Shown here piece by piece: positions 37,538-64,000 of a DNA stretch of 64,000 nt. Source of the stretch: the human T2T-CHM13v2.0 reference genome, Homo sapiens; assembly GCF_009914755.1 (NCBI RefSeq), contig NC_060935.1. One strand, 5' to 3'. A program made the position numbers and the translations under genes. The first letter of the stretch is position 1. Each line of letters begins with the position of its first letter. The notes below the pieces were generated by a model. It did not search any database and was not told the origin of the DNA. It worked only from the letters and a program-made list of their open reading frames with translations.

Positions 37538-38206
37538 TTATGGATGCCATCAGGGAAGGACGCACTTTGTACCATGGTCACTGCAACTTCACGTACAGGT
37601 TTAAGTCTCACTGCCCCTGCCTACCTTCAGACAAATTTCTCTCTTAAGAGGATAAAGAAGCTAGCATTGTTTTAGCTCCTATCACGTCCTAGGAAGTTTA
37701 TATGTATGCATTACTTGTCACAGCAATCCTCTGCAGCATTAAAATTGCAATTTCCAGATGAGGAAACTGAGGCTCAGAGAAGTCCAGGGATTTGCCCAAA
37801 GACAAAGGATTTAAGCCTGAGTCCATCAGATGTCAAAGCCCATGCTTCTTCCCTGACATCACTCCAGCAGGCTGGACTAGGCAGGTGAGGTTTTGTTCTT
37901 TTTCTCATTGCAGGCTTGCTCCTTCTAGCTCTATGACTGTTAACTAATCTAGCATTCTGGAAAAATGAGGCAACATTCCCATTGATCCCTAAGTGTCCAT
38001 TCTTGGAGAGTTTTGTGTAAAGCGTGGCCCTCTTCCTTTTCTATGGCAGACCCCACATGGGAGGGGACACATATCTGTCTCTAATGCCTTGGTATGACTG
38101 TGTTTATCAGGTCCCTTTTCTCCGAATTATATGGCCATTAGGAAATAAATCCTATCAGAAGAGAAGAAACTAGAACCAGGGGGAAGGACACACATGAGCA
38201 GGCTGA

Positions 38207-38936
<730 letters not shown>

Positions 38937-40287: not shown

Positions 40288-40319
40288 GATGATGATGATG
40301 ATGATGATCATGATGATGC
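40288..40319. repeat. (GAT)n microsatellite
   Basis: Visible directly. Confidence 0.85.
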
Positions 40320-40583
40320 TACTACTTATTAAGCATAATAATAATGACTGCTGCAATTTATTGAGCACTTACTACATGCCAAGAACTGTGCTTCACATGC
40401 ACTCTCTAATTTGATCTTCACAACAACTGTTTGACTAGTAGTCTGTTCATGCTGCCATTTTACAGGGGAGAAAATGGAGGCTCTGAAAGGTTAATTCTCT
40501 TCCCAAAGGACACGAGCTAGTAAGGACAGTAGCTGGGGTGGAAACCTGAGTCCCAATTCTGATTCTGAGGCCTGTGCCCCTAA

Positions 40584-40585
<2 letters not shown>

Positions 40586-40631
<46 letters not shown>

Positions 40632-40640
40632 TGTGTGTGT
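40586..40640. repeat. (GT)n microsatellite
   Basis: About 27 GT units with one interruption. Confidence 0.95.
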
Positions 40641-40929
40641 ATAGATGACTTAACATAAAAAGTAAGACACCTTGAGCAATTAACTCTCCAAGAAGAACTT
40701 CAGGACACAGACTGAAGTAAAATTCTCTCCTCTCTCTCTCCACTAACAGGTCTACACTTGGGGATATGCAGGTGAGCGCCCACAGCTCCCTTCTACTCAC
40801 AGGGCAAAGGTGTGGGACCCTCCATCCCTTTTCACTTCCACTTCACCAGACTCTCCCAGCTTTCTGGACATTAGTGAGACATGGGTTCCTTGGCATCCAA
40901 CTCCCTTTGTGATGCCCAGCTACTGCTTT

Positions 40930-41450
40930 CTCTAGATCCCCTCCAACGGCTTCCGTCACACTTAGAACAAAATCCAAAGCCCTCCTCTTGGCAAACAGGG
41001 CCCTGCATGATCTGGCTGTGACTCCCCCTTTACCTTTTCTATTCCAAGTACCCTCATCTATGCCATTCTCCCCACACTGACCTGCCCAAGCATGTTCAGA
41101 GGCTTTGCCCTCACTCTTCCCACTGCCTGGAATGCCTGTCCTTGGGTATTCACGTGGCTCGCTGTATTCAGGTACCTTGCCCAAATGCCACCTGATGAGA
41201 GAAGACTTCCCATTTACCTTCTCCCCAACAGCACCCTTCAGCCCCTCCACTCTCTGACCACTGATCCTGCTTTATTTCCTTTCACAGCATTTATCACTAC
41301 CTGATCTTTCATTGTGTCTGTATATGTTATTATCTGTGTCACCAACTAGAGGAGGAACTCTGTGAGGACGGGGATGTCCCCCGGTGCTCAAGCTTGTCTT
41401 AGCCTGTAATATAGCACCTCGCCACTGAGGCCGCTCAACGAACACTGTCA
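40930..41450 (+). mobile_element. L2 fragment
   Basis: cttagaacaaaatccaaagccctc ... ccactgcctggaatgcc ... cacagcatttatcactacctga. Confidence 0.7.
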
Positions 41451-41532
41451 AATGCACGCCCAAGTCTCCAGGTTGCGTTCCCTTGCCCTGTTTTACAATA
41501 TAATACATGATGGGTTCTTTGACCCAAACTAA

Positions 41533-41950
<418 letters not shown>

Positions 41951-42911
41951 TGACTAATATTTTCAGGCTCACTCTCATGTTGGAATGCACCTCAGCTGCC
42001 ATTGCTCCAACCACGTTTCATAGGTTAGGAAGATGAGGCCCAGACAAGTTAAGCCCCTTGTCCAAGATATCACAGCTGGTTAGGGATGTAGCAAACACTG
42101 AAATCCAGCTGTTTTGCTTTGTATTCTAGTCTCTAAAGAAGAGATGTGTAACTTGTAGGAGGTACAAAGAAGACACATAATTTAGTCCTGGTCTCTTGGT
42201 ATGTCCTCCAGTGGTAGAAAGAGAATTGGGAGTTTTCAGTTTTTCCTACTTTTCATTCCCTAAATTCGGAATACTTCTGGTTCCCCCACAGACTCCTCAA
42301 ATCTGCTAGCCCAGATTCTCAAGGCCCCTGGCACAGAAACTAACGACTGCTCTAGAACTAAAGATTTGGTCCCCATGGTGCACAGGTAAAGCAATATTTA
42401 AGGAAAGATGATCACCTAGAGAACAGTGGGCAAGTTCCATAGTGGAAAAGAGGCACAGGCAGTTCAGACTCAGCATCCACAGCGTCTAATCTGGAAGACG
42501 GAGGACATCATGGGCTGTGCCGGCGCTGATGCTCACCCTGTTCCCATGGGGACACATCTCCAGTGTTTCGCCCACCAACTTGTCACGCTTCTCTAATGTT
42601 TATTTGACTTATCTATATATGGTGGGAAGTTGAGCAAAGAATGTGTCAAGAGCCCAAGCGAGGACCAAAGAGGATGGCCTGGGAAGAACAAAGACAAATC
42701 AATCCAGAGCAACTACGCGATCTCAAACCAAATAAGGAAGAAACAACTATTGATTTCCAAGAAGGGCAAAAAAAAAGAAAAAGGAGGGAGGGGAGGGAAG
42801 GGGGAAAGGGAGAAGAGAGAAGAAGCGGGAGAAGAAAGAGGAGAAGGAGAAGGAGAATCCCTTGTCCAGCAAATACAGGTCACAGAGCACCTAACAGCTT
42901 TTCTCTATCCT

Positions 42912-43340
42912 GGTGTGGCAGAGCCTGGCACCGTCCCTGCAGTAGCCATTCTTTCCTTTAGGACTCATGGCTGTCCCACTAAAGACTACAATTCTAAGAC
43001 TCCCTTGCAGCTGGATGTGACCACAGGGTGAGATTCTGGCCAATGGGATGTGAGTGAAATGTGCAATTTCAGGAGCTTGCCCTCTTCTTTCTTCCCCCTC
43101 CTGTCAGGGAAGCCTGGCTGTGATGGCACATCCTCTGCAGCCACACAGGTGAGGACAACACTCCAAGGACAACAGAGCTACAGGAAGAAAAGAGTAGGGG
43201 GCCCCAGCACAGGCAAGCTCCTCTGCCGGTGCCAGATCTTATCCCTGGACTGCGATGTGACAGGGAAATAATCTCTCTTGTTTAAGCCACTATATTCCGG
43301 TGTCTTCTGTTACAGCAGCCTAACTGACATTCTAACTAAA
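42912..43340. mobile_element. Old MaLR LTR (MLT1-type)
   Basis: gactacaattctaagactcccttgcagc ... ttctggccaatggga ... ttgtttaagccact. Confidence 0.65.
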
Positions 43341-43733
43341 GCTCTTTGTTTCTGCACTCAATATTTAAACTTTACCCACTGTCGTTGAATCTCTGACTTG
43401 CCCTGTCCACTTAACCCCACTCTCAGGAGATGATCTGATCTTCTATTTCAGAAAGCAAAGAGAAGCCAGCATATGGGAACACTCAGCTTCCACTACATAA
43501 CCTTTATAGGTGACATCTGCACATACCTGCTCCTCCCATCCCTGCTGGAACTCTGTGGGAGTGTCCCTCTTCCTATCATGGCCAGGATTTCCATCTGGGC
43601 TTTGGGTCCCATCCCTTCCTGCCCTTCAGGGTAATCTCATTATCAACCATCCCTTGTCTTTTATCATTCAGCCTCTCCCTCCCTCTTGACTGTTACCATG
43701 GCAGTTTTTTAATATGTTGGTGTCTTTCCCATC

Positions 43734-43735
<2 letters not shown>

Positions 43736-43763
<28 letters not shown>
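43736..43763. repeat. (TAA)n microsatellite
   Basis: Visible directly. Confidence 0.9.
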
Positions 43764-43766
<3 letters not shown>

Positions 43767-44771
43767 TACTAAGACCTTCCTTGATCACACACTAGCATGG
43801 CACATTTCTATAGCCTCCTCCATAGTACACAAAGAACTGTGTATTCATTAGTGGAGGAGAGGGTGCAAGAGGGGCTTTGTCCCCATGCTCCTTTCTCCCA
43901 TACCCCTTTAGTCGGGCCACCCCCCAACAACCCGTCGTCTCAGCAGGTAATTCTGAGCACCCTCATGCTTTCCTTGCCCTGAAAGGTACAGATCCCAGAC
44001 GCTGGAGTTCAACAGCCCTACTTTGCTCTGCTACTCAGCCTGGCATGACCCCTGACTCCTGCACTTCAGTTTCATTGATCATAAAATGCAAACAATGGAT
44101 ATGCTACTTCATAGGGTTGTTGTGAGGATTAAAGCATATATGTGTCTTTATCAGGATTTCTAGTTGCAATCCATAGAAATGAACTCTGGCTAATTTGGTT
44201 AGAAAAGGGAATTGTTAAAAGGATTTTGGAGACCCCAGATCTCCAGGAAGGCTGGAGAACAGGTTTGAATACTATGTTGCCAGGAATAACACCCAAAAAT
44301 CACATCACAGAGCTAGTCCCCTGAAGAAACCTCTGCCAAGCCACGGCCGCTGTCCCCAGACACACTGTTCACTGGCCCCAGAGCAGCAGTGACGGCTGCC
44401 ATCACAAGTGGGAAGTCACTGCCATAGGCCCCTCTCCCTCGCCAGAATGGATCCTGAGCAGTCACAGCCTCAGCCCATCAGCAGCTGCTGATTCACAGCC
44501 TGGGGTGGGTCCATTGGCAGAGCCTGGGTCTCATGCCAGCATCCGAGCTGCAAAGGAAATGGGGAAAGCAAGTTATCTGTTATATTCAGCTTCTGTACTG
44601 TGCGCATGGGTGAGGAGGAGTATCCTATAGTCAGAGGAAGTGTGTTCAGCTACCAACAACCAAAAAGAATGACTAATATCCACTAAACAAATGAAATATT
44701 TATCCCAGTACTTGACGTGTTATCTTTCATCATTGTACTTTATTTTACCCAAGTCTGTGTTGAGACCATCA

Positions 44772-45385
<614 letters not shown>

Positions 45386-45540
45386 TCACAACCATCCCCC
45401 TCTTTCCCCCAGCAACAGAACTTTCCAATAAAACCTACCTGTCCCCACATCCCAGTATCTCCTTTTATTTTTTTCTCCAAGGAACTAATGGCTATCTGAT
45501 AAACTTGGGCTAAATATGGATGACTGAAAATTGGCTAGTT

Positions 45541-45684
45541 GGTGTCTGATTCTTTTCTACATCTTCCTGTGTTCATAGGAGATTCCCGGAGTCACAGAGC
45601 TTCCACCCAAAGGGTGTCTGATTCTTTTCTACATCTTCCTGTGTTCATAGGAGATTCCAGGAGTCACAGAGCTTCCACCCAAAG
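45541..45684. repeat. 72-bp tandem duplication (2 copies, 71/72 identical)
   Basis: 45541-45612 and 45613-45684 differ only at c45587/a45659. Confidence 0.95.
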
Positions 45685-45978
45685 GGATTTCAAGCAGCTG
45701 TGAAATTTACCTCAGGGAGTTTTTGGTCAGCAGGAAGGTCTTTTGACTGAGACGACTGCTATTCAGTAAATAACCTTGGCTAAATTGATGTCACCAACTC
45801 CTTGTCAACCCCATAGGTTTGAGCACATCTTACATACTTTCACACATTTTATCTCACCCGCTCTTCCCCCAAAGCCCCATGTGATATTCAGGATGTTATC
45901 ATCTGCAGTTGATGAGATGTCCAGAAAGGCTTAATGAACTTCCCAAGGGACTAAATTTGGTAAACAGAAGTAACACTA

Positions 45979-46601
<623 letters not shown>

Positions 46602-47699
46602 GTAATAATAAGACTAAAACTAGACCCAGTGTCCTGATTCCTGGCCAAGTGCTCTTTACTTTTTACAAATTCCAGCTGCCCTTTTTTAGGTGGAGAAAAT
46701 CCCAGTGGTGTCAGTGAATAAAGGAACAAAGGAACCCAGGAGAAAGTCCTTGGGAGGCTGGCAGGGGAGAATAAACAAACCAGGAATGATCCCCCTCTTT
46801 AGGAACATCTGATTTGCTGTGACTTAACTCTGAATATTTTCAAATTTCTGATTCCAAAACATTTACATTCACCAGGAGTACTGAATGTAATTACTTCCTT
46901 TTTGTCTCAAAAATTGCAAAAATTAGGGGATGTACAACAACCACAGAAGGAATTCAGGAGCTGAGGTGAAAAGGGGTAGCACCCAATCTGCAAAGCCAGT
47001 GGGAGCCTTTTTAGCCACAGCACTGGGGAAGCTGCCATCTTTGAGCTCCATGATTAAAGCAACTGCAAATTAGTTTCAGCAAAGGTCTTTCTCCTTAAAT
47101 TGAAAAGCACCGTGTAATGGAATTTCATAGACGCTGCTTTGGAAATGACTTCATACCTCACTCTGTTCAGAGCTGAGAGGTGGCCACATGCCATGAATCA
47201 TAAGAGGCTGAGGCTCTCGAGGGGCTGGTGAACCATCCTCTGACTTCAACATCTAGATGCTCACAGACAACTCGCCCCCATCCGTTAACCTAGGAAGGGA
47301 ATTACTCATCTCAGAGCACTGGAGTCACTTCTGCATGATTAGTAATCTTCTCTTCCCCCAACTCAGGCTACTTACTTGCAAACTGTGCTTTGTACCACAG
47401 TCAGGCTCCTAGGGGTTGCTAGCTGCAAACAGATTGCCCAGGTACATGCATTTTAAGTAAAAGGCTTTGAAAAGCTATGGGATTTGGGGGCTTTAGGAAG
47501 ATTTCCAATAAAAATGATAAAGTCAAGCTGACAAAGATACATACGGAATGCCACGCTGTTTTCACTGACCACCTTCGCTTTCTTGGGGTACTCTGTGAGA
47601 CCCCATCTTTCCAAATTGTTGGCAGCTTTACGGTCAACCAAAGCAGGCTGTATTTCAGTGTCAAGTCTGATTGATTAATATTTTCAAACAGCTCAAATG

Positions 47700-48280
47700 T
47701 TTAATACATTTATGCATAAAAAATGCATTAACTTCTACTATGTGCCAGGCACTAGGTCAGGCACTAAATTACAACAGTAAGTAGGACTATCAATCACAGT
47801 TCTCATGGTGCTTATAGTCAAATGATGGAGACAGGATGTATTCAAATAATATGACGCATGTAAAATTGCAATTATGACAATAATTGAAAGTCCCTAGGCT
47901 TTCAGGGAATCCTGAGAGAGCCCAGGAGAGGGGAATTAGACCTGGTCAGGGTCTAATTAGACCAAGTCAGCCCTAAGAAAGTGACCCTTGAGCTGAAACT
48001 AAAAGGTAAGGAAGAGCTAACCAAATGGAGAGAGAAGAGGAAAGCACTGAGGCAGAGGACACAGTGTGGGCAAAGCCCTAGAGTGGCAGGGGCATGGTAA
48101 GGACTGGAAACAGAGCCCATATGCATTAAGCTTAATGAGCGAGGGGAGCCTGAGGAAGAGGCAGACCCCTCAGGGTTCCACAGGACACCCAAAGGAGTTC
48201 TGTCTTTGTTTACAATGCAAATTGCATGGCATGGAAAAGTTTTGAATGGAGGTGAGGGCGGAAAGGTGGCCTCATCCAAA
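47700..48280 (-). mobile_element. L2 fragment
   Basis: ctactatgtgccaggcactagg ... gaaagtgacccttgagctga ... gtgggcaaagccctagag. Confidence 0.65.
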
Positions 48281-49379
48281 TGTCCCTCTGCTTGCAGCAT
48301 GGAGGTTGTATTGGGTTGGGGCTCATAAGCTGCTTGCCAAAAACCCATGAAGGGAAGTAGGTGTTTAAAGTCTTCCCTGCCCTGATGGTGACCTGATTCA
48401 CCCAGAATCTCAAGGCCAATCACACAGCCAGCTCAGGTATTCAGGACACCAGTCTCCTACCACAAAGCTCCTTCTACTACAACATTGCTTAGTAGTAGCA
48501 TAATTTTCAAGATATGATGTTATCACCTGGGCAATAAGTTGGTAAACCAGGCAGCACATCCTTTCACCTCTCTGGGAAGCTACCCACTGACACAGGTAAC
48601 AGCACTGACAATAATCAGCATTCAAGTACCAAGCCCAATACTGGGGTCATCACTTTTCCAGCTACATACCCCCTGTGTAGGAGAGATGTTCAAGTGTGTG
48701 CTCTTACAAATGATGATAATAATTTTAAAAATTTAACCTCCAGTCATTACCTATGTGCTTATGTATTGGTGTTGAGGAAGAAAGCAGGTTATCAAAAGGA
48801 CCAAGCTACCTGAACACATTCCAGGAACAGGAACTAGGGCTCAACTTTTGTGGTGATTTATTTGCTCAAGAGTTATTGTACCCATTCTGTTAAATTATTT
48901 CACATTTGCTGATCATTTAATTAAAACATCTACTTAAGGTAATGGTATTATAAATGTTTAAACTGTTATCACTATGTTTTTCTATTTATAACAACTGTGT
49001 TGTAACCATACTACACAGATACAGTCCACCCAGAGACCCTGCCCCGTTCCCCTCTGCACAGTCAGCCAGAGTGGCTCATGTGTCCACTCTCCCACTGTTT
49101 CAGTTTAAAAATCATAATTATACTACCCAGAAGGAGGTGCTCATGAGCTCATCAGCATCCTTTGACCACATCAGCACAGATTCAGTTATTTTAGAAATCA
49201 GGGTTCTGCACAAATGAAAGGGAAGACAGATGAGCCTTGATTGGGAGACAAAGGAGGGTGGGGAGATAAAAAGGCAGACCCAGAGGTACCTGTAGTGGCA
49301 ACTGGCAGACTCAAAGGCATCAAGTGCCAGGAATGGGAGGTACCAGATCTGGTATACCCTTGGCTTACCCTTGGCTTAT

Positions 49380-50103
49380 TGGTGTGGCAGAGAAAAACAC
49401 ATACTCAACAAACCCTATTTCCTTTTCCTCCTGGGAACATGCCTACATGACAATTCCATCTACCCTTTCAGATAGGTGAAGCCATGTGTCTTCTACCCAA
49501 TAGAGTGTAAGCAGAAGTGATGTGTGCCAGGCCTGGCCCATAAAAAGCTCTGGCAGAATCCTCCTTGCTCAATTCCCCCACCCTCCTGACAAATGGAGAA
49601 GCCTCCATTGACTTAGAGCAGCAGTTCTCAATTCAACCAGGGGCCATTTTGTCCCTTCCCCCAGGGGCATTTGGCAATGTCTAGAGACATTTTGCATTGA
49701 CACAACTAGAAGCATGTCCTACTGGAATCTAGTGGGTGGAGGCCAGGGATGTGGCTAAACATCCTACAGTGCACAGGACAGCTCCCACAACAAAGAATCA
49801 TCCAGCCCCCAAATGTCAACAGCACTGCTAGTGAGAACACTGAACTAGTGGGGGTAGAGCCACCGGGTGGGTTCTTGAATGACTGCCTGGAGCAGAGTGC
49901 CACACCCGCATGTGTGCACACACACATACACACCCATGCACATATATACATGCACACACATCACACGTAGACACATACACACACACATGCACACACACTG
50001 ACCTGTATGAGCTAGGAATTTCAATAAGAAATAAACTTTCATTGTGTTAAGTCGCTGAGATTCAGGGATAATAGCAGCTAGCATTATTTACTTTAGCAAA
50101 TAC
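49380..50103. mobile_element. MLT1 LTR containing a MER20 (49619-49842) and a (CA)-rich tract
   Basis: MLT1 segments (gtaagcagaagtgatgtgtgcc; aaataaactttcattgtgttaag) flank the MER20 cagcagttctcaa ... tgagaacactg. Confidence 0.75.
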
Positions 50104-50469
50104 AATCACCAGGGGTTAATCTTTCCATGGAGGACAAGCATGCCCTTAGCAACAGCTGCCTCACTTGGCAGGTACAGGGAAGGCTTCTGGAATAAAGAAG
50201 TGAAGGGCAATGGAGGCCTGGCCCTGTCCTTCAGTCACGAGGCCCACAAGGCAATGGGGGTAAAAAGGCCTAGGGTACAGGGGGAGTTTCAGAGCTCTTT
50301 CACTCTTCATGACCGGAGGCGGCACCTTTGGGAAGAAACTTAGCAACTCAGCCCAAGAACACAATCCGAACCCCACACCTACCCAGGAGAAACACAACAA
50401 CAGCCAGAGGCAGCATCAGCACTAACCCCCGTCTTCTTCCTCTCTCCCTCACCCTTTTTTTGTCTGACA

Positions 50470-50950
50470 GGGACTTGCTGATAATAATCAACAAGGTCCT
50501 TTTAGTGTATGGGCCGGTCTTGCTGTGACTAATAAGATGATTGGTTGTATATATCCTCTTTATGGTTGTTCATTATATCACCCTAACATAAAGTAATTTA
50601 ATTTCAGTGGGATAATTAGGGTATTTCTAATCTAACTGATAGTCTGAATGAAATGAGATTCTCAGAGGGAGATTTGTGTATCAGGAGACTGGTGACCTCC
50701 GGCCCCAATTTTCACACAATGTATTAATCTGACAGCCCGACTTCCCAGGCACACTGCATCCATATATTTCTGAGCCTGTGGGTTACAGAGCACAACCACA
50801 AATGAGATTACTTTATTTATAATGAGATTTCCTTGGGCTCAAGGAGACAGATCATAATATTTTAACTGAGGCCTTCAGACTGACAGAGCATCCATACGTT
50901 AACTCAAGCCCTGAGACGCAAATGTATCAAAGAGGGAGTGAGGCCCTGTC
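50470..50950. promoter_or_regulatory. Candidate conserved non-coding element / enhancer
   Basis: Repeat-free, TAAT-rich block (TAATTTAATT, GATAATTAG, TATTAATCTGACAG, TGATTGG). Confidence 0.35.
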
Positions 50951-51171
50951 TAGGGTCTCAAAGACGAAGCTCAGCAGGAGAAACAAAAATGGAACCCTGT
51001 GAGATGTATGCCTGACTGGGACGGGTCAGGGCCACCCCCACAGGGGTGAGGGCCACTGGAAGACCCCTGACTGTCACCTGTTCCCTTGAGGAGGCTGCAG
51101 AAAGAATCTGCTCAGTATGTCTGAAATGGGGGGACAAAGAAAGATACTGCTGGAAAGAAAAGGTAGTGAAG

Positions 51172-51527
<356 letters not shown>

Positions 51528-52168
51528 CTACTGCCTGTCTCCACCCCCCCAGAACATCCCCCTAGGAGCAGACCCAGCTCACCTCTGTCCTCCAGGCAGG
51601 CTCCAAACCTTTCAATTAGAGCCACTCTTTTACGTTAGTCATTGGAGGCAGGATGCTGGTTCTTAGGAAAATCTGCTACTGAAAACACTCCTCATTCATT
51701 CACTGAGTGCCCACATGTGCCAGGCGCTGCTCGGGCCCAAAACGGACAAAGCCTAGTTCCAGGCTCCTTCCATTCTTCTGGTTTTATCGCTCAAAACTTC
51801 TTGGTAAATTTCTTTTAGAGTTTAATGTGAGGTGGGAAAAAAAGTCTGTTTCTCTGGAAGAAAAACTGTTTTCTTTCATGAGATAATGAGAATTATGCAG
51901 CTCATCTCATCTTGTTCCCCTTGTTTTCTTGGGTGCTTGGAAGCTCAGAGATGAATGTCAGGCAGTAGCAGCATTAGGTTAGGATTTGGGACCTATTTTC
52001 CTTCTTATTTTCTATTTCCTTATTTTTTCAAATAAAGGAGAAAAGCTTTATTTAAATGCATCATTTAACAAAACACTTCAAGTTCAATTTGAAAATAATA
52101 TATTTTATTTTTTAAATAAGCCAAAATAGAAGCATTGACTTACAAAAAGCCACTGTTAAAATTCCTTT

Positions 52169-52756
52169 AGTGGCTTATGCCTGTAATCCCAACATTTTGG
52201 GAGGCTGAAGCAGGAGGACTGCTTGAGGAGTTTGAGACCAGCCTGGGCAACATAGCGAAACCCTGTCTCTAAAAAAAATTTTTTTTTTTGAGATGGAGTT
52301 TTGCTCTTGTTGCCCAGGCTGGAGTGCAAAGGCGCGATCTCACTCACTGCAACCTCCGCCTCCCAGGTTCAAGCGATTCTCCTGCCTCAGCCTCCCAAGT
52401 TAGCTGGGATTACAGGCACCTGCCACAACACCTGGCTAATTTTGTATGTTTAGTAGAGATGGGGTTTCTCCATGTTGGTCATGCTGGTCTCAAACTCCTG
52501 ACCTCAGGTGATCCGCCTGCCTTGGCCTCCCAAAGTGCTGGGATTACAGGCATGAGCCATCGCACTCGGCCTTTTTTTTTTTTCTTTAAATTAGCCAAGC
52601 ATGATTGTTTGCGCCTGTAGTCCCAGTTACTCAGGAGGCTGAGGTGGGAGGATCACATGAGCCCAGGAAGTGGGCGCTGCAGTGAGTTGAGATCGCACCA
52701 TTACACGCCAGCCTGGGCAACAGAGCAAGAGACTGTCTCAAAAAAAAAAAAAAAAA
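52169..52756. mobile_element. AluJ (+) split by an inverted AluS (Sp/Sq-like, -, about 52278-52572)
   Basis: J left arm, antisense AluS in the linker, J right arm at about 52586-52756. Confidence 0.85.
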
Positions 52757-53059
52757 GTCCTTAGTAAGTGTTTACTAGGTGCCTAATTAATAACTGCCCT
52801 CTGGTCGGCGTGTGGCACAGGTCCTTTCCTAAGCACTTCATGTCTCACAATAGCCCCCTGACGTAAGCACTAGTACTATCCCCACTTTAAAGATAAGGAA
52901 ATGAGGCAACAGAAAAACTAAGTAGTTTGCCCAAGATGGCACATTCAGTAAGGAGTAGAACCAGGACTAAAGGGGTAGTCTGACACAAAGGCTGCCCTCT
53001 TAACCATTGCCCCTCAGCATATGCAACATACTGGGCTAGGCAGTAAAACATGTATGTGA

Positions 53060-53593
53060 CATATACTTGATGCCTCCGCAGCTGCCAGCATCCTCTGAGC
53101 CCCACTTTACACTCCAGCCATTGGTGCAGTGACCAGCCTGCTCAGGTATGACCTGCCAGCACCTAGCCGTGGCAGTATGGAGAATCGTTGGCTTTCCCCC
53201 CTGGGGTGTCTCTCCCCGAACCTCATGGGAGCCTGGCAGAATCTGCTCAATGATTCTGACATGTTCACACGTTTGGAAAAGAGTGAGAGCTCACACCCAC
53301 GAGCCAAGCCTTGGCCAATGGAAGATGGAGCTAGTAGATAAATGTTCCCCATTTCTGTCCTGTGAGCAGAGAATTCTCAGGCCGGTTCCGCACAGCTCCT
53401 CAGGGATCCTAGGGGGATTTAGCCCCTGGGGCCCACACTGTTCATTGGCTCAGGAGTGCTAGGTTGGTCGTCATCTGTCTCATTCACTTTTCTTGACCCC
53501 TCACTCTTTTTCCTTGAAATCAATTTCTAAAAAACAACCTTTATGCAAGATCTTAGCTCAGCTCTGCTTTTGAGGTAAATCAAGGCTAAGACA
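53060..53593 (+). mobile_element. LTR16-like ERVL LTR
   Basis: ccttggccaatggaagatggagctagtagataaatgttcccc ... ctcagctctgcttttgagg ... ggctaagaca. Confidence 0.6.
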
Positions 53594-53767
53594 CTACAGT
53601 TCCTTGTTTGAGGAGTTCAGATTAGGGTGACCTATCATTACAAGGGGAAAAATTCAGTAACAGTGCATAAGAATTTATGATTAAATAGCTAAAAGATCAA
53701 CTCAAGCTATGAAAATACAAGAGTGCAGAGAAGAGAATGCAGAAATTATTGTAGGAAACTGAAACAA

Positions 53768-54071
53768 TTTTTATTATTATTATTTTTTTTTAGACAGGGT
53801 CTCACTCTGTCACCCAGCCTGGAGTGCAGTGGCACAATCACGGCTTACTGCAACCTTGACCTCCTGGGCCCAGGTGATCCTCCCATGTCAGCCTCCTGAG
53901 TAGCTGGGACTACAGGTGCCTGCCACCACACCTGGCTAATTTTTGTATTTTTCGAAAACATGGGATTTCACCATGTTGCCCAGGCTGGTCTCAAACCCCG
54001 GGGCTCAAGCGATCCACCCACCTCAGCCTCCCAAAGTGCTAGGATTACAGGCATGAGCCACCGCACCAGCC
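53768..54071 (-). mobile_element. AluJ
   Basis: Dimeric Alu. Confidence 0.88.
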
Positions 54072-54074
54072 TAT

Positions 54075-54235
54075 AATAAAATTTTATTGGAGCATGGCCA
54101 TGTTATTCATGTACATGTTGTCTATGGCTATTTTCCTATTACAGAAACAGAACTGAGTATGTGCAACACAGACCTATGTATGGCCCACAAAGCTTAAAAT
54201 ATTTACTGTCTGACTGTTTATGGAAAAAGTTTGTG
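54075..54235. mobile_element. MER58-like hAT DNA transposon fragment
   Basis: ttttattggagcatggccatg ... tggcccacaaagcttaaaatatttact ... aaaaagtttg. Confidence 0.7.
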
Positions 54236-54634
<399 letters not shown>

Positions 54635-56212
54635 TCAGACAAAGGTAGAAAGAGACTGCAGAAGAACAGGAGCAAGAATATTCCAGCTAGAGGCAATGGT
54701 TTAACCAAAGACAGAGAGGTGAGAAGCAGGTGGTCACAGGCAGTTTACTATTGCAGGAGACGAAGAAACTACAGTGGAAGTGATGGCACATGAGGCTCCA
54801 GGCAGAGGTTTCCTTAAGTTCTCTGATGCTGGGTTATTTCTCTCATTTTAGGATATTTCCTTCAATAGACAAAGATGCTGTAACAAAGAATATCCCCAGA
54901 GCCTGGTATGTACCTTTTACTGAAGGGAGTTTATGTGAAGTTTGTCCCATTTATGTTCTTCTGATGAGCAGTGGGAGCCTCTGCTCCTAAAGCCACCCTC
55001 TTTGCACCTGGGCATTCCTGACATGAAAGAGCCACCCCTTTGCCTGCCTGGGATATGCCAGCTCCTGTCTTCTGCTCCTGCTGCTGCTAAAACAGCCACA
55101 GCTGAGTTGTGGCCATAGCAGTGAGAGTCCACTGGGTGCTCTAATGAGGTCTCCCTAGTCGGCCTGACTTGTGGTTTCCGGGTCTGAGGATCCAGTAATG
55201 TGTGGCAAGAACAATCATGGAAGACTTGCTGCACAGCCCGGTAGACAACACTTCTTTATACCATTGGAAAAGCGTGTCCTGGGTGATCCAGCAAGGTCGA
55301 GAGCGAGTTACTTTGGTTCTTTCAAGAAACATTCACTCAGGCCAAAATATATGCCAGGCAAGGTAATATACTGATCAAGATACTATCCTCCCTCGAGGGG
55401 CTCACAGTCTACTGGGGGAGATCGACATGCAAATTAACCCACACCCCAGTGGGGGAAATGCTGCCCTATGACTCCTTGGGTCACGCGATGGGGTGAGGAA
55501 AGGAAGTGGCTCTGCCTGTGGGAGGGTCAGGGAAAGCACTGGGAGAGAAGATGCTCAACTAGCTTCCCCAGAAGGCCCTGGGGGCAGCGCAGTCCCAGCA
55601 CGTGCAAAGCCGAGAAGCTGTGAATCACACGTCTCACCTGGGGAAATGCTCGGAATGATGGTTTGCTCACCTAAGCATGACCTAACTTCCACTACACATC
55701 TGTCTGATTTTCAAAGAACTGTAAGGCACTCAAATGCCGTAAGCTGGAACATATTTTAGGCTCTCGTGGGGCTCCAGGTTCATTGCCACAAACATCAGTT
55801 ATTACTGCACTGATAAGTGAAGAAACAACAGTTAGCAGAGCTTTCTGGTTGACTGATTTCAGATAAGCCCACTTTTTCCTTTGCCCATATGTAGACAGAA
55901 CCAATAAAATGGATCTAAACTCTACACAAGGCCAGGCTGCTTGATCCTGATGAAGGAGGTCGGCACCCACCCTCTGCAAGCTTTGGCTTCCTCTGGAGCT
56001 TTGGCTTCCTCTGGAGTCAGAGAGGTCATGCCGCTTCTCCAATGAGGGTATCTTGTTTTCTGTATGTGTATTGCTTTAGAGCATGATGCTGCAGAATTCA
56101 GTTATAAGGTGTTGCTTCCCTCTGGCACTCTCTAAAAACTTGTTGACTAGCTCCAAGAGGAGGGAAAAGGTAATCCAGTAGATGACATAGGAATCGTATC
56201 AGTTCTATAATG

Positions 56213-56488
56213 GGCTGGGTGCAGTGGTTCAGGCCTCTATTTCCAGCACTTTGGGAGGCCAAGGCAGGAGGATCACTTGAGGCCAGGAGTTCAACATCAG
56301 CCTGGGCAACATAAAAATTTTTTTAAATTTAGCAGGACATGGTGGCTTGCACCTGTAGTCCTCACTACTCAGGAGGCTGAGGTGGGAGGATCGCTTGAGC
56401 CCAGGAGTTTGAGGTTACAGTGGGCTGTAATTGTGCCACTGCACTCCAGCCTGGACAACACTGTAAGACCCTGTCTCTAAAGAAAAAA
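56213..56488 (+). mobile_element. AluJ
   Basis: Diverged dimer with a shortened left arm. Confidence 0.85.
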
Positions 56489-57129
56489 ATTATATTAATA
56501 TAATGGCCATCATTCTTTGATTGTCAGGCACCGTGTTAAGAGATTATTATAAACATTATTCCAGCTAGACCTCACAAGGAAAGACTCATTCATTCCTTTA
56601 AACAAATGAGGAAACTGAGGCAGAGAAAGGCTAAATACCTTGGTTCACACTAGTTATACTAGTTATAGAGCAGGGACCAGACACATTTCTCTGGTTTCAG
56701 CCCAAGCTCTTTAACAGCTAAGTGGTGCTGCTTCCTACAGGTAAAAAAAAAAAAAAAAAAAAAGCTGAGTTGCTTTTACTTATTTAAAAGCAGACTTGCT
56801 CTTTGCTGCCATGTGAAATTAAAATATAGATCTAATCCTTGCTTTTCATTTGAAAAGAATTTTTTAAGGCAACTCTTAATTAAATCAATAACAGGCTACT
56901 TGCCCTCCTTCCAAAATGCCAGGTTGGGCTGGTGGGGTAAAGAGAGACCTAAAATAAGCCTGTCCTGAGTCACCCTAGAATGGCTGTAGGTAGTGGCAGA
57001 CCTGGAAAGTCTAGTAAGAGCCACTAGTTAATCACGTAAGACAAATCCGTGTTCCTTCTTCCAGTGACTGAAGGACAGCGGGCAGGGATGCTATGAGGAG
57101 CTGCTGCAGAGAAAGGGACAGGACACCAG

Positions 57130-57724
57130 GCAGCCTCCCTCCACAGGAAGGTCATCTGCCTGCTTGCTCTTAGCTCCAGTCCTACCCTTCCATGATCTGC
57201 TTTTATTTTAGGGGCACTAGGATCCCCCCAAGCCCCCTTGCTAGCTAGCTTCTGATTTGGTCCTAGCAGTGGGAGGCACTGGGGACGTTTGGAAGGCAAG
57301 AAGAGGGGAAGGAAGGACTCTTCCTTATTCCAGCTCTGTCAGAAATCCTCCAGCAGCAGTCAGCTATGGGCGCCAGCTTCCCCGGCAGCTCATAACAGCC
57401 TCCTCCATCCCAGCCCCAGCACTTAGCATCCCCTCCTCATTCCCAGCACTGACTCAGCACAGCCCTTCCTCCAGGGTCCCAGCACCCACCCAGGATCCCA
57501 TTCTCTGAAGTTCTGGGCTCTGGTAATATTATGTTCTCTCTGTTGTTCCCCCAGCACTAAAAGTAAGGTTTTCTGCAGTTGCCAATCTCTGTATTATATC
57601 ACTGTCTTTTTGTTTGCTCTTTGAGTTCTTCCAATAACTGTGTTGCCAAATCTCTGTATTCAACTCCTTCTGTTTGAAAGACCTAGAGAAGTTTCTGTTT
57701 TCTTGACTGGACCCCAGCTGACAT
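57130..57724 (+). mobile_element. LTR33-like ERVL LTR
   Basis: gcagtgggaggcactgg ... ctgcagttgccaatctctg ... gtttctgttttcttgactggacc. Confidence 0.55.
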
Positions 57725-57973
57725 GCTCCATGTGTATGTCCACAGCTGTTAGAAAAGATATTTCCAGGACTTTCACTTCACTGACTCCTCCCTCACCATC
57801 CTGATTGTCCTGTTTGGGGCATACTCCCCTAGCTTTGGTCCTACCTAGTAATAAAGTCTACAGTTTACTGACCACTTATTATGTACTTTGCAAATATTAT
57901 TACACTTAGTCATTATGCCTAACACAGGGAGCTATACAATATTTTAAAGAAATTAATTAAAAACCCTAAGGCT

Positions 57974-58214
57974 GGCCGGGCACGGTGGCTCACACCTGTA
58001 ATCCCAACACTTTGGGAGGCTGAGGTGGGTGGATCACAAGGTCAAGAGATCGAGACCATCCTGGCCAACATGGTGAAACCCCGTCTCTACTAAAAATACA
58101 AAAATTAGCTGGGCAGGAGAACCGCTTGAACCCAGGAGGCGGAGGTTGCAGTGAGCCGGGATCGCGCCACTGCACTCCTACGGAGTGAGACTCTGTCTCA
58201 AAAAAAAAAAAAAA
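57974..58214 (+). mobile_element. AluS (Sc-like) with an internal deletion in the right arm
   Basis: aaaaattagctgggc joins directly to aggagaaccgcttg; TSD aaaccctaa. Confidence 0.85.
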
Positions 58215-59119
58215 CCCTAACACTGAGGTCACATGGCTATCAAAGAGAATGAGTCGACATAGGAACTGAGGCACCTCTGAAGTAGCCCAAGCACTTCATC
58301 TACTCTCCTGCCTCCTCTTATCTCTTTTGCAAAGGTCTGTTCTGGGCTCTTTGATCTGTGCTTTCCTACCTCTTTTTTTTTTTTCTGTCTCCTATTCCTT
58401 TCTCTCTACTACCTGAGTAAAATGTTTATCTTTTAAGAGGCCCCCTACTTCCTGCCCTCAAAGGGACTAAGTACTGACTACTTGGTACCTGAAGATCGGG
58501 ATTCTTTTCTACTCCCTCAGACCTTGCTAGTAGTCTAGGCTTATCCCAGTAACCCAGCCATCTCCCATGGCCTAGCCTTTTCTCATTGGCTCAGTCCACT
58601 CCCCTTAGCCCTGCCCCCTCCTACTTGTAGATCCTTCTCCAAAAGTGGTCTAGCCTTCCACTATTTGCACGGCAGGGAGATCTGGTGCCAACTCTCCCCT
58701 GATGGGGGTGCAGGCCGTGAGAGGTAAAGCATGAGAGAATATGAAAAAGCTTAATAAACATCCTAAGGAAATCTGCTTCAATGGCTATTTAGGAAAGAAC
58801 TGCAGTTACCGCATCAATGGCTGACATGCAGATACATACATACATACCAGTGAATATTCCAAAACAGTCTATCCTCCTTAGGAGTTTCAAGATTTCCCTG
58901 ACAATATTTACGTATACTGTTGGCTCATTTGGTGAACTATTTTTGAATAAGTAATGCAAGGGTAAATATCAGTCCCTAACAAAGAGAACTTAAACATAAT
59001 TTGTAAAACAAACTGATAATGCCAAGTTGCTGGCATCTAGATGCCCATTTTCATTGTTTCAGATTTGCCTATCGAGGCTAAGATGGAAATGGAGAAAACT
59101 AACACTGATTTCTTTTAAG

Positions 59120-59350
59120 GTAGAATAGTTAACAATGACTAAACTTGCACATTTTGTCAAGCACTGCGTTCAGAGCTTCGGGTGCCTTATCCCATTTAAT
59201 CCTCATAACAATCCAGTGAGGTAGAGTCTAGAATTCTTACCATTTCCATGTTACAGATGAGGCAACTGAGTCTTAGACAGATTAAGAAACTTGTTCCCAG
59301 GCATTGCTGGAGAAAGCAGGTGTCACCTGACAGTTTATCTATGGGGGCTG
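59120..59350 (-). mobile_element. MIR
   Basis: atttaatcctcataacaa ... ttacagatgaggcaactgag. Confidence 0.7.
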
Positions 59351-59509
59351 CACCCTTCACCACCACACCACCTGTCTCCCCTCGCTGGCCAGTCCCCCGT
59401 TCCCTACTGGCACAGCTTTCTTTTGGCAGTTTGGCCCTGAATACACTTCAGGATAAGTTCCTTCGTTGTGATAAGCAGGGCCCACGATCTCTGACAGCTG
59501 TTCCCCGCT

Positions 59510-59810
59510 CTTCATCATCATCTGAAACAATCAGTAAGCATTAGAGAGTACTTTTCCCTTTACAAAGGTGATAATTAGATAACAAGCTGAGATTAAAGTA
59601 ATTACAGTTAGACAGCTGGCGAGGCAGCACAGTCATGTTGAAATATTGTTGGTACTTCAGCATCTGGTTCTAATAACAGCATAGGCTAAAGGATTTTACA
59701 TTAATTACAGAACATAATTTAATATAAACATATTTAATTACAATTGATGAGCGATAAACTGTTCAAGAATGACTTAACCCCTTCCGCGTGTCAAAGTGAT
59801 GGGAACTTGG
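59510..59810. promoter_or_regulatory. Candidate conserved non-coding element / enhancer
   Basis: Very dense homeodomain motifs (GATAATTAG, TAATTAC, ATTAATTAC, TTTAATTACAATTG) and a CAGCTG E-box. Confidence 0.4.
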
Positions 59811-61041
59811 GGCAGGCTGTGGCCAGTTCCACCGTCTTTCTCCCCTCCCTGCCACGTCCTCCACATCCCCCTGGCACCCCCTCCTGGACAAACCCCCCTC
59901 CCCAAAAAGGAATGTTCTAGGAAATGATGTGTGGCTCATTGATTACCCCATGGGTATTTGGCCACCCTTAGAATGCCAGGAGAAAAGGAGGCTACAGGGC
60001 ACCACAGTCTGTGATGCATCACTGTGGCCCGACCCTCCTCTTCCTCTCATTGCCCGAAATGAGGCAATTCGCCGCTCCTCACCTGCTCTTCCCACACTCT
60101 CACACCTTCAAGGGGTGCTAGGTTTGCTTCCAACAGTCCACGAACAACCTATTAAACAGTCTGCAGATCTCATAGAACAAGTTTAAAGGTAAATCCATTT
60201 TCTTTATGAAATCATGACTACAAAGTCCCTGGGCACAACAGTCAGGGTATTTTCACAATTTAAGAGCCAGTGTGTAACACCTGGAGATTTCTACCTGTGA
60301 CAGAGCATTATTCCATCAGGAATTCTTCCTTACCTGCCGCCTAGCCCCATCTCTACCCGCAAAACTGGCAGAAGCTGACCCTGGGTGAAGCAGTTTATAA
60401 CACGGGATCGCACAGACATGCTCTCCACTGAATAAAGGCCTCAACCACCATTAACTGCACATTGTCTTTCCACAGGCCCCTTTGTGAATGGGAGACATTT
60501 GACAGCCACAAAAGCCAAACAGCACTAGCTCTCACTCGTATTGAGGTAACCCAGGAGTCAACCCAAAGAAGCTACAAGGCTGGTCCTTCCTAAGAGAGAG
60601 TGAGTAGCCCTGAGTGAGTTAGAAAATTCACTGTCAAGTTGCCCTATGTGACAAATGATGGGAAATTATAAATAACCTCAAATGCTGTTTTTACCTCCTG
60701 CTGTGGATTTCAAAGTAGAAAGCATACATTGTCCTAAAAGCTAAACTGAGTGCTGAAAAAGATAGTTTATTATTCACAAGTAAGCAAGTGCAAACTACTT
60801 CTACAGAAATTACGGGCAGGTGCACGTAAAGTAAAATTAGTGTGAAGATTCAGGACAAGAGAGAAACAGCCACTTTCAAAGTGAAAGTGGTTTTATACCT
60901 ATCCTTTAGGAAAAAAAAAGAGTTTAGTTGCTTAACATAGCAAATCTGCAATCTGAGTAAGAATTATAAAGTACTTTTTGTAGATGAAGTGCTCCTGTGG
61001 AAGGGAGGAAGAAACAAGAAGGGAAAATAATCAATAATGCA

Positions 61042-61366
<325 letters not shown>

Positions 61367-61600
61367 TAAAAAAAAAACAATTTAAAAATAGGCAAAGGAT
61401 TTGAATAGGCATTTTTCCAAAGAAGGTATACCAAAGTCCAATAAGCACATGGAAAGATGCTCACCATCATTAGTCATCAGGGAAATATTACTTCACAGAC
61501 ACCAGAATGGCTATTATCAAAAAGATGATAACAAGTGTTGGTGAGGATATGGAGAAACTGGGACCCTCAGCCATTGCTGGTGGGAATATAAAAGGCACAG

Positions 61601-62247
<647 letters not shown>

Positions 62248-62884
62248 CACAGCTACGGTAGAAAACAGTCCGACAATTCTTCAGAAAGTTCAACAAAGAG
62301 TTTAACGTATGACCCAGTAATTCTACCTTCATACCCAAAATTGAAAACATGTCCAGATACAAACTTGTACATGAAATCTTCACAGCAGCATTACTCAGAA
62401 TAGCCCAAAAGTGAAACAACCCAAATGCCCATCAACTTATGAATGAATAAGCAAAATATGGCATATTCATACAATGGAATATTATTCAGTCGTATAAAAG
62501 AATAAGGTACCAATACATGCTACAACATGGGTGAACCCTGAAAACTTCATGCCAAGTAAAATAAGCCAGATACAAAACACTAAATATTATTCCATTTACA
62601 TGAAATGTCCAGAATCGGCAAATCCAAAGATATAGAAATTAGATTAGTGATTGCCAGGGGATGGGAGGAGAGGGGAATTGAGAGTGGCTGCTAATAGATA
62701 CAGGTTTTTTTTTGTTGAGGGGGAGGGTAGCGATAGAAATGTTTTGGCATTAGATTGTGGCGATAGTTGCATAGCATTGTGAATATACTAAAAACCACTG
62801 AACTGTATACTTTAAAATAGTGAAAATGCTGGATTTTATGCTATATAAATTCTACCTCAAATAAAAACTATCAGTCTGGTTAAC

Positions 62885-63185
62885 TAGAGCTGATTCCCAC
62901 CAGGGAAACCTGGGAGCCTGTGTAAGGTATGCACCTTAGAATTATCTCCCCCAAGAAGGAAGGAAGGTGGGGTATTTATACACCAGCTCTCATCAGTCAG
63001 TAGTCGAAAACTGCTTCTAGGGGCATTCATCCCTCGGAACTTCTGGTCTGCCCATAAAAGGAGCTCTGGTAGCCAGAGAAAGTCCTTAGGCAAAGAAATG
63101 TTGCTAATGGCAGTTGACAGACAGGCCAGCATGCCCCCAAAAGAGTACAGGCAAAAAGGCAAAATAGGTTCCTTGCACTGACAGT
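62885..63185 (-). mobile_element. LTR16-like ERVL LTR fragment
   Basis: cttagaattatctcccc ... ggggtatttatacaccagctctcatcagtc. Confidence 0.5.
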
Positions 63186-63918
63186 CTGTGCTACTCTCTC
63201 GTTGGGATAAAATAAGAAAGCCCATGTAAAATGCATCAGTGCTAGACACAGAGAAAGCTCTCAATAAATGTGAGTTATTTTTACAGAAGACTCTATAAGG
63301 TTAAACAATTTGATCAAAACTTCCCAGCTAAGGCAGGGTAGAGCTAGGGTTTACACAATCTCTATATGACACAATCTTTCATATACAGAATTATATTGAC
63401 CAAATATACACTAACCAGCCTTGCAAACATACCTATCAAATGGCAATCATGTCATCATGGCATCCAGAGGATATGATAAACATCTTTATATCTTTGCTCT
63501 CTCTCTCCTCCCCCTTGTGTGCCCTCTGTGGCGGAAGCAGCTGCTTTTCCCACAAAAAGGCCTCGAGGGTTGATGTTAATGTCTGCTCAAGTTGCACAGG
63601 GGCTGAACATTATGTGGTCTATTGTGTAGGTGCTTATTTGAGATTCAAAGCCTACACATTTGCTGACAATTTAGTGCAAAGGACCAAGACATATGAACAC
63701 CTGAGACTGCAGGAGCAACAGGGCGGCGCGTTTTTCACTCACGTGTCAGTTTGCTGTTCTCCTCTGGAAGGGTCTGATATTCACATGGCTCAACAAAAGA
63801 GGTGCACTAGCAGAGGAAAACTGGGGGAACCTCTTCCCGGAATTCCCTACATGAACTCCCAACCAAGGGCATGTCAGAGAGTCAAAGAGAGGGGCTGGAG
63901 CTGCAGAACTTGAGCGAC

Positions 63919-64000
63919 CTGATGAGGTAGAGGCTGATAATCGTGTCGAAGTAGCTGTAGTACACGGCGTTGTTGACGTGGCCATACTGGTCATTGTCCT
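63919..64000 (-). pseudogene. THEM7P: Exon (truncated by the window edge) of a YbgC/4HBT-like hotdog-fold acyl-CoA thioesterase gene; probably THEM7P (thioesterase superfamily member 7, pseudogene)
   Basis: The reverse complement from 63998 reads gac aat gac cag tat ggc cac gtc aac aac gcc gtg tac tac agc tac ttc gac acg att atc agc ctc tac ctc atc ag|gt = [27 protein letters not shown]. This matches the D-x-D-x-x-G-H-V-N-N-x-x-Y thioesterase motif. Third codon positions are strongly C/G-biased. A GT donor sits at 63918-63917, and read-through stops about 12 codons later. The family call comes from the sequence; the gene name and pseudogene status come from recall. Confidence 0.8.

What the first reader, a model, noticed from the sequence alone, without database searches (positions are those of the whole stretch)
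63919..64000. Hidden, apparently intact hotdog-thioesterase exon (THEM7-like) in a frame missed by the ORF track
Seen: an uninterrupted minus-strand frame, [27 protein letters not shown], with nearly all codons ending in C/G, several CpGs retained, and a phase-2 GT donor. Known: D-x-D-x-x-G-H-V-N-N-x-x-Y is the active-site motif of YbgC/FadM/4HBT-type acyl-CoA thioesterases, in which the second Asp is the usual catalytic residue; it is retained here. Recall: mouse Them7 is an intact, poorly characterised gene between Wt1 and Rcn1, while human THEM7P is annotated as a pseudogene. Inference: this is either a recently lost enzyme gene or an overlooked functional one, because no inactivating lesion is visible in this part of the exon.
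Basis: partly seen in the sequence, partly recalled or inferred. Interest (0 to 1): 0.8.

Follow-up and report, generated by a model that had tools for sequence, protein, structure and literature searches.

The report
Intact first exon of dead THEM7P
The stretch is a real, undamaged first coding exon of the human copy of the thioesterase gene Them7, but the only other coding exon, 118 kb away, carries two stop codons, so this is a relic of an already known dead gene.

Summary
On the minus strand, 63998..63919 reads [10 protein letters not shown]... and ends at a phase-2 GT. It matches Pfam 4HBT just above its cut-off.

Reading past the window end gives the whole exon, window 63919-64136. It has 72 codons plus 2 bases and starts at an ATG that aligns with the start of about 200-residue mammalian THEM7 proteins.

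A whole-genome search with an intact orthologue found only two real matches. Both lie on chr11, minus strand: this exon, and a second coding exon 117,612 bases downstream.

Joined in silico, the two give 200 codons colinear with the orthologues and no frameshift. There is a TAG at codon 105 (Gln in 31 of 32 intact mammals) and a TAA at codon 170.

On a confident model of an orthologue, codon 105 lies before three of the five hotdog strands.

So this is the known unitary pseudogene THEM7P, not an overlooked enzyme. The small new point is that RefSeq's T2T span for THEM7P stops 61.3 kb short of this exon.

Protein-level counts suggest decay since before the human/colobus split, so the loss is probably not recent (inference). 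Interest is low.

The parts
63919..64000 (-). The in-window part (3' 82 bases) of the first coding exon of THEM7P. The whole exon is window 63919-64136 (chr11:32365919-32366136 in T2T). Its ATG is at 64136-64134. An acceptor-like tract (a T-rich run ending in AG) ends 24 bases upstream of the ATG.
   Evidence: Searches give the sequence and frame. One search gives the Pfam 4HBT match. Searches show homology and colinearity with mammalian orthologues from residue 1 to 73.
63917..63918 (-). GT of the phase-2 splice donor (CAG|GTCGCT). It departs from the usual donor consensus at +3, +4 and +5. The intron that follows is 117,612 bases long.
   Evidence: The consensus is recalled. The donor was not compared with other species.
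1..63916 (-). Intron sequence between the two coding exons. The second coding exon lies outside the window at -53694..-54078 (chr11:32248306-32247922). It carries TAG at -53790..-53788, TAA at -53985..-53983 and the natural TGA at -54078..-54076. RefSeq's THEM7P span ends at window 2636.
   Evidence: One search found no other THEM7-like coding match in the window. Apart from 36 weak matches of the colobus model's N-terminus to a dispersed repeat (best E 0.012), every other match had E of 0.088 or more.

Best explanation
Window 63919-64000 is the 3' part of the first coding exon of THEM7P. THEM7P is the human unitary pseudogene of the mammalian thioesterase gene Them7, a YbgC/4HBT-class hotdog enzyme and presumably an acyl-CoA thioesterase.

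The ancestral gene has two coding exons:
- Exon A (window 63919-64136) encodes residues 1-73: a variable N-terminal leader, the invariant D-N-D-x-Y-G-H-V-N-N active-site loop and the central helix.
- Exon B, 117.6 kb downstream, encodes residues 73-200: strands 2 to 5 of the sheet and a C-terminal helix.

In human, exon A is undamaged. Exon B has a TAG in place of Gln105 and a TAA in place of His170. The longest product would therefore be 104 residues and would lack three of the five strands, so no working enzyme is made.

Shown: the homology, the exon anatomy, the two stops and the fold of an orthologue. Inferred: thioesterase chemistry, loss of function of the truncated product, and a loss older than the human/colobus split.
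For: - Frame, ATG and donor.
- Pfam 4HBT match, 21.2 bits against a cut-off of 20.6.
- Protein search with the 72 residues of exon A: 1521 proteins at E <= 0.001 among 1530 candidates. The top of the list is mammalian proteins, mostly of about 200 residues, at 66-82% identity, with PF03061/PF13279 precomputed for most.
- Whole-genome six-frame search with the lynx protein: 4 matches at E <= 10, of which 2 are significant. These are exon A (residues 1-86, E 1.1e-33) and exon B (residues 72-200, E 1.4e-51, with stops inside), both on chr11 minus. The other two have E 4.5 and 8.0.
- In-silico splice: 200 codons, no frameshift, stops at codons 105 (TAG), 170 (TAA) and 201 (natural TGA).
- Gln105 is present in 31 of 32 intact mammals. 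The alignment printout shows His at 170 in 31 of 32, and His170 is at least 90% conserved over 47 homologues reaching to bacteria.
- AlphaFold model of the armadillo orthologue: pLDDT 83.5, pTM 0.80. Strands at 37-40, 87-97, 108-116, 120-128 and 164-173; helix at 56-75.
- The model matches the PA5185 thioesterase of Pseudomonas aeruginosa (Foldseek E 5.7e-16, TM 0.90 on the target) and YbgC-type structures. The sequence match to PA5185 has E 4e-31.
- At columns at least 90% conserved, human departs at 15 of 116, against a median of 4 for the intact species.
Against: - Exon A is strikingly clean. 39 of 41 core residues (33-73) equal the mammalian consensus. GC3 is 0.88 there against 0.57 in exon B. 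CpG observed/expected is 0.45 against 0.12 in exon B.
- There is no frameshift in 600 bases.
- The human count of departures (15) lies inside the range of species whose models are intact: ring-tailed lemur 18, tree shrew 14. So the case for a dead gene rests on the two stops, not on drift.
- The difference between exon A (3 of 45) and exon B (12 of 71) is not significant (Fisher p 0.16).
- Both stops lie in the last exon, where (established knowledge) they should not trigger nonsense-mediated decay, so a 104-residue fragment is not excluded.
- Only one human haplotype (this assembly) was read.
- I saw no transcript, ribosome or peptide data and no primate DNA.
Confidence: 0.9

Rival explanations
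1. The locus still makes something useful. Either exon A is translated into a 104-residue fragment (leader, active-site loop, central helix, strand 2) that escapes decay because the stops sit in the last exon, or exon A is spliced into other transcripts of the region.
For: Exon A keeps its ATG, frame, motif and GT. Its core is 39 of 41 identical to the consensus, while the colobus copy has 33 of 41. CpG observed/expected is higher in exon A than in exon B. A GWAS table labels a variant in this interval a THEM7P non-coding transcript variant (one passage read), so the locus is modelled as transcribed.
Against: The fragment would lack strands 3 to 5 of the orthologue model. The donor looks weak. 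The human-versus-colobus contrast in the core is about 1 against 7 derived changes, which I estimate is not significant (my own binomial estimate, about 0.08, not from a call). No expression data were seen. No CpG-island-like window lies in the 20 kb upstream (0 windows found).
Confidence: 0.06
2. An intact, overlooked enzyme gene.
For: No lesion in exon A. No frameshift in the whole reading frame.
Against: There are two in-frame stops in exon B, at positions conserved in mammals; His170 is also conserved over 47 homologues reaching to bacteria. There are replacements at positions invariant in 32 of 32 intact mammals: V87L, A112V, G147A. RefSeq lists it as a pseudogene (hub table). In the list of 120 best proteins, no ape has a protein, and the only anthropoid model (red colobus) skips 18 residues around codon 170.
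Confidence: 0.01
3. A chance open frame, a processed copy, or a fragment of another hotdog gene.
For: A 27-codon open frame is common by chance. The Pfam score is only 0.6 bits above the cut-off.
Against: E 1.1e-33 over the full exon. The exon is colinear with exon B across a 117.6 kb intron, so it is not a processed copy. There is no other significant copy in the genome.
Confidence: 0.01

Closest known systems
THEM7P (human; RefSeq 'thioesterase superfamily member 7, pseudogene') and mouse Them7 (UniRef Q6PER5, P0065 here)
   Same: Same locus next to RCN1 (hub table). Exon A is 68% identical to the mouse protein over 100% of the query. The reading frame is colinear and of the same length, 200 codons.
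   Different: The RefSeq T2T span (-54073..2636) holds exon B but not exon A, which lies 61.3 kb beyond its 5' end. The human frame has stops at codons 105 and 170. I found no open-access paper on the function of Them7.
PA5185 thioesterase of Pseudomonas aeruginosa (PDB 2AV9, 2O5U, 2O6B, 2O6T)
   Same: The nearest solved structure to the family. Sequence match E 4e-31, sharing the W-x-D-N-D-x-Y-G-H-V-N-N loop, F-P-Q and V-H-V-F-V. Fold match TM 0.90 on the target.
   Different: The mammalian proteins carry an N-terminal leader of about 30 residues and an insert of about 30 residues (130-160) between strands 4 and 5. The human copy is truncated.
YbgC/FadM family acyl-CoA thioesterases (TIGR00051; Pfam 4HBT PF03061, 4HBT_2 PF13279)
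   Same: Same hotdog fold and N-terminal Asp motif. Structures of E. coli and P. aeruginosa YbgC appear among the fold matches.
   Different: The armadillo orthologue scores 29 bits against a TIGR00051 cut-off of 68.7, so it is not a member of that subfamily model. THEM7 is a separate branch of the 4HBT class.

Membership tests
4HBT / YbgC-class hotdog thioesterase (Pfam PF03061) | Profile match above the curated cut-off | tested here: met
   21.2 bits (26 residues) and 23.0 bits (38 residues) against a cut-off of 20.6. PF13279 falls below its cut-off (17.0 against 25.5). The orthologues carry PF03061/PF13279 precomputed.
4HBT / YbgC-class hotdog thioesterase (Pfam PF03061) | N-terminal active-site loop D-x-D-x-x-G-H-V-N-N with the Asp residues kept | tested here: met
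   Searches show it in the human exon. D47, N48, D49, Y51, V54, N55 and N56 are invariant in 47 of 47 homologues. Which Asp is catalytic is recalled, not tested; could not settle it.
4HBT / YbgC-class hotdog thioesterase (Pfam PF03061) | Complete hotdog fold: a five-stranded sheet around the central helix | tested here: not met
   The orthologue model has strands at 37-40, 87-97, 108-116, 120-128 and 164-173. The human frame stops at codon 105 and again at 170.
4HBT / YbgC-class hotdog thioesterase (Pfam PF03061) | Hydrolysis of acyl-CoA or another thioester | not testable with these tools
YbgC/FadM subfamily (TIGR00051) | Score above the curated cut-off of the subfamily model | tested here: not met
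   29 bits against 68.7 for the armadillo orthologue. Human exon A gave no match.
Orthologue of mammalian Them7 | Best and unique match to THEM7 proteins, colinear over the full length | tested here: met
Orthologue of mammalian Them7 | Position between RCN1 and WT1 | tested here: inconclusive
RCN1 lies 60-75 kb before the window in the hub table. WT1 is not within 100 kb after it. A sturgeon gene model fuses a THEM7-like part with WT1 and zinc-finger domains (P0086), which hints at old adjacency.
Unitary pseudogene | A disabling lesion in an otherwise orthologous, intron-bearing locus | tested here: met
   Two nonsense codons and an intron of 117,612 bases.
Unitary pseudogene | No intact copy elsewhere in the genome | tested here: met
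   10 candidates scored, and only the two chr11 exons are significant. The first look is a filter, so a very diverged copy could be missed.
Unitary pseudogene | Lesions fixed in the species and neutral evolution (dN/dS near 1) | not testable with these tools
   No population data and no primate DNA are held. Protein-level counts only.

The most novel reading that the evidence does not exclude
Exon A is still used. Because both stops lie in the last exon, the spliced RNA would escape nonsense-mediated decay. It would yield a 104-residue protein with the leader, the intact active-site loop, the central helix and one strand. Such a half-hotdog micro-protein might be kept in apes for a new role, which would explain why the exon is cleaner in human than in colobus.
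Probability: 0.03. Interest if true: 0.45.

Novelty: already known. Interest (0 to 1): 0.12.

Why it matters
It matters little. THEM7P is already listed as a pseudogene, and the two stops confirm that.

Two modest points are worth recording:
- The RefSeq T2T span of THEM7P misses the true first coding exon by 61 kb.
- The gene died by two nonsense changes with no frameshift. The family itself has no function described in the open papers I could search, although it is conserved from bacteria to mammals. The mouse or armadillo protein, not the human locus, is therefore the thing to assay.

Tried and rejected
- A paper search for 'THEM7' alone returned 618 papers. All 20 listed were unrelated to the gene by title; I take them as text matches of 'them' plus a reference number 7.
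- 'THEM7P' or the full name gave 7 papers, of which 4 were listed. I read one passage in each of 3. Two are GWAS gene tables and one is a BLAST table.
- 'Them7' together with 'thioesterase' gave 0 papers.
- In the search, none of the 15 papers listed (of 77 found) held 'Them7'.
- A second protein search, with the 64-residue middle piece of exon B, gave only 11 proteins at E <= 1e-10 and no further anthropoid.
- I looked for upstream coding exons and a CpG island in the 20 kb beyond the window. No window passed GC > 0.55 with observed/expected > 0.6. The only protein matches were to exon A itself and up to 72 bases upstream of its ATG (18-21 bases in most models).
- I looked for protein similarity at RefSeq's 5' end (window 2636) and found none.
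- I tried to settle which Asp is catalytic from the D21A mutant entry 5DIO. Chain numbering could not be tied to residue numbering.
- I tested whether exon A is better kept than exon B: not significant.
- dN/dS could not be computed, because no primate or mouse DNA is held.

Full report
**The observation**

The minus strand of the window from 63998 down to 63919 is open. It reads [26 protein letters not shown], followed by AG|GT. In one search, 23 of 26 codons end in G or C and the 82 bases hold 5 CpGs.

An open frame of this length is common by chance, so it carries no weight by itself. The homology does:
- The 26 residues match Pfam 4HBT (PF03061) at E 3.7e-4, 21.2 bits against a cut-off of 20.6. 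They fall below the cut-off for 4HBT_2.
- In a tblastn of nine mammalian proteins against the whole window, this is the only significant THEM7-like match (E 1e-11 to 5e-7).

**Extending the exon**

The window's own genome is held, so I could read beyond base 64000. The frame stays open for 111 codons. An ATG lies at window 64136-64134. 24 bases upstream of it, a T-rich tract ends in AG, which looks like a splice acceptor.

The donor reads CAG|GTCGCT. Against the usual GTRAGT (recalled consensus) it fits only at +1, +2 and +6, so it looks weak. Without DNA from other species I cannot say whether it was always so.

**What the exon belongs to**

A protein search with the 72 residues gave 1521 proteins at E <= 0.001 among 1530 candidates; the best 120 were listed.
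- The top of the list is mammalian proteins, mostly of about 200 residues, at 66-82% identity. Most are called 'uncharacterized protein'. One (blind mole rat) is called 'Thioesterase superfamily member 7', and mouse Q6PER5 is among them.
- Further down come turtles, sharks, a sturgeon, echinoderms, a hemichordate, chytrid fungi and bacterial acyl-CoA thioesterases.
- Four of the 120 are primates: tarsier, slow loris and ring-tailed lemur, each 200 residues, and red colobus at 203 residues. No ape, macaque or New World monkey protein is listed.

**The rest of the gene**

A six-frame search of the whole genome with the lynx protein gave 4 matches at E <= 10. Two are significant, both on chr11 minus:
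- residues 1-86 at this exon (E 1.1e-33);
- residues 72-200 at chr11:32247925-32248311 (E 1.4e-51), with stops inside.

The other two matches (chr13 and chr20, E 4.5 and 8.0) are noise. The gene therefore has two coding exons separated by an intron of 117,612 bases, and there is no second copy in the genome.

Exon B starts after a T-rich tract ending in TAG|G, and its first base completes the split Arg73 codon. Joined in a script, the two exons give 200 codons with no frameshift. The stops are at codon 105 (TAG), codon 170 (TAA) and codon 201, the natural TGA. In window coordinates the two premature stops are at -53790..-53788 and -53985..-53983.

**Comparison with intact orthologues**

From the first 75 proteins listed, I took the 32 of 199-201 residues. 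I dropped the other 43, which are longer or shorter isoforms and partial models. I added the colobus model and aligned all of them with the human reading, with X at the stops. The human ATG aligns with their start and the natural stop with their end.
- Codon 105 is Gln in 31 of 32.
- Codon 170 is His in 31 of 32 in the printout, and His170 is at least 90% conserved in a wider set of 47 homologues that reaches to bacteria.
- Of 116 columns at least 90% conserved among the 32, human departs at 15: 3 of 45 in exon A and 12 of 71 in exon B, the two stops included. The intact species have a median of 4 and a maximum of 18.
- Three human replacements hit columns invariant in all 32: V87L, A112V and G147A.

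Against my reading, the human count is not outside the intact range. Ring-tailed lemur has 18 and tree shrew 14. The difference between exon A and exon B is not significant (Fisher p 0.16). The case for a dead gene therefore rests on the two stops.

**What the stops remove**

An AlphaFold model of the armadillo orthologue, built on the 47-sequence alignment, is confident (pLDDT 83.5, pTM 0.80).
- It has a disordered leader (residues 1-18).
- The strands are at 37-40, 87-97, 108-116, 120-128 and 164-173.
- The central helix is at 56-75 and a C-terminal helix at 185-192.

It matches the PA5185 thioesterase of Pseudomonas aeruginosa (Foldseek E 5.7e-16, TM 0.90 on the target), then many YbgC-type and other hotdog thioesterases. 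PA5185 is also the best sequence match among solved structures (E 4e-31).

A stop at 105 leaves the active-site loop, the helix and strand 2. It removes strands 3, 4 and 5 and the last helix. The stop at 170 lies within strand 5. I infer that a 104-residue product cannot form the hotdog sheet, and so cannot form the dimer that builds the active site in this class (established knowledge of the fold).

**When the gene was lost (inference from proteins only)**

The colobus model has Gln at 105 but skips residues 162-179. Gene builders do this to step over a lesion, so it may share the stop at 170. Its first 17 residues match a dispersed repeat at 36 places in the window, so that extension is spurious.

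Over 182 positions aligned between human and colobus:
- 9 replacements are shared by both and absent from all 32 intact mammals;
- 12 are derived in human, Q105-stop included;
- 16 are derived in colobus;
- 2 are ambiguous.

With recalled neutral rates (about 3% per site on the human branch since that split), I would expect about a dozen replacements in 182 codons. So the human branch looks unconstrained over its whole length. This argues for a loss at or before the catarrhine ancestor, with the TAG at 105 arising later on the ape side. It is a rough estimate, not a test.

**Annotation**

The hub's table gives RefSeq's T2T span of THEM7P as -54073..2636.
- That span holds exon B, all but its last 5 bases.
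- It ends 61.3 kb short of exon A.
- The sequence at 2636 has no THEM7-like coding similarity.

A GWAS table calls a variant at hg19 11:32296455 a 'THEM7P / WT1 ... non coding transcript variant' (one passage read). By my recalled offset between assemblies, that lies some 45 kb beyond exon A towards WT1. The Ensembl model probably spans the exon, but I could not check this.

**Literature**

Searches for 'THEM7P' or the full name gave 7 papers, of which 4 were listed. I read one passage in each of 3: two GWAS tables and one BLAST table. 'Them7' together with 'thioesterase' gave 0 papers. None of the 15 papers listed held 'Them7'. So I found no functional study of Them7 in the library searched. 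Subscription journals are not covered.

**Verdict**

It belongs to a known pseudogene whose other coding exon is broken twice.

The remaining open reading is that the exon is translated into a 104-residue fragment, since last-exon stops do not trigger decay. I give this a few per cent, for these reasons:
- The fragment lacks most of the sheet.
- The donor looks weak.
- No CpG-island-like window lies within the 20 kb upstream.
- The cleaner state of exon A in human than in colobus (39 against 33 of 41 core residues) is within chance.

Noticed in passing
P0086, Acipenser sinensis, 509 residues: A sturgeon gene model matches THEM7 exon A (59% identity over 82% of the query). Its precomputed domains are WT1 (PF02165) and C2H2 zinc fingers. 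It looks like a merged model of neighbouring genes, which would mean the THEM7-WT1 adjacency is old in vertebrates.
   Followed up: no
P0002 (red colobus) residues 1-17; window e.g. 15411-15461, 52500-52550, 13706-13756: The N-terminal extension of the colobus protein model matches 36 places in the window, many inside NCBI-masked repeats of about 300 bases. The extension is therefore repeat-derived (Alu-like, by recall) and not a real part of the protein.
   Followed up: partly
P0055 (Lemur catta) and P0073 (Tupaia chinensis): Two species with intact 199-200 residue models depart from conserved columns as much as the human pseudogene does (18 and 14 of 116, against human 15). The gene may be under relaxed constraint there too, or the models may hold errors.
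   Followed up: no
window 2300-2760 (minus strand): RefSeq's 5' end of THEM7P (2636) has no protein similarity to THEM7. The annotated span seems to start at a non-coding exon and leaves out the true first coding exon.
   Followed up: partly
Armadillo orthologue P0003, residues 130-160: Mammalian THEM7 carries an insert of about 30 residues between strands 4 and 5 that the bacterial relative PA5185 lacks. It is modelled with lower confidence (block 131-140, pLDDT 64) and holds two short helices.
   Followed up: no
L006 and L007 (chr11:32366001-32386000): No CpG-island-like 500-base window and no further THEM7-like coding match lie in the 20 kb upstream of exon A. Any upstream non-coding exon and the promoter lie further away or are CpG-poor.
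   Followed up: partly
window 63913-63918 (minus strand, donor of exon A): The donor GTCGCT lacks the usual purine at +3 and G at +5. It may be a third, splice-level lesion of the pseudogene.
   Followed up: no
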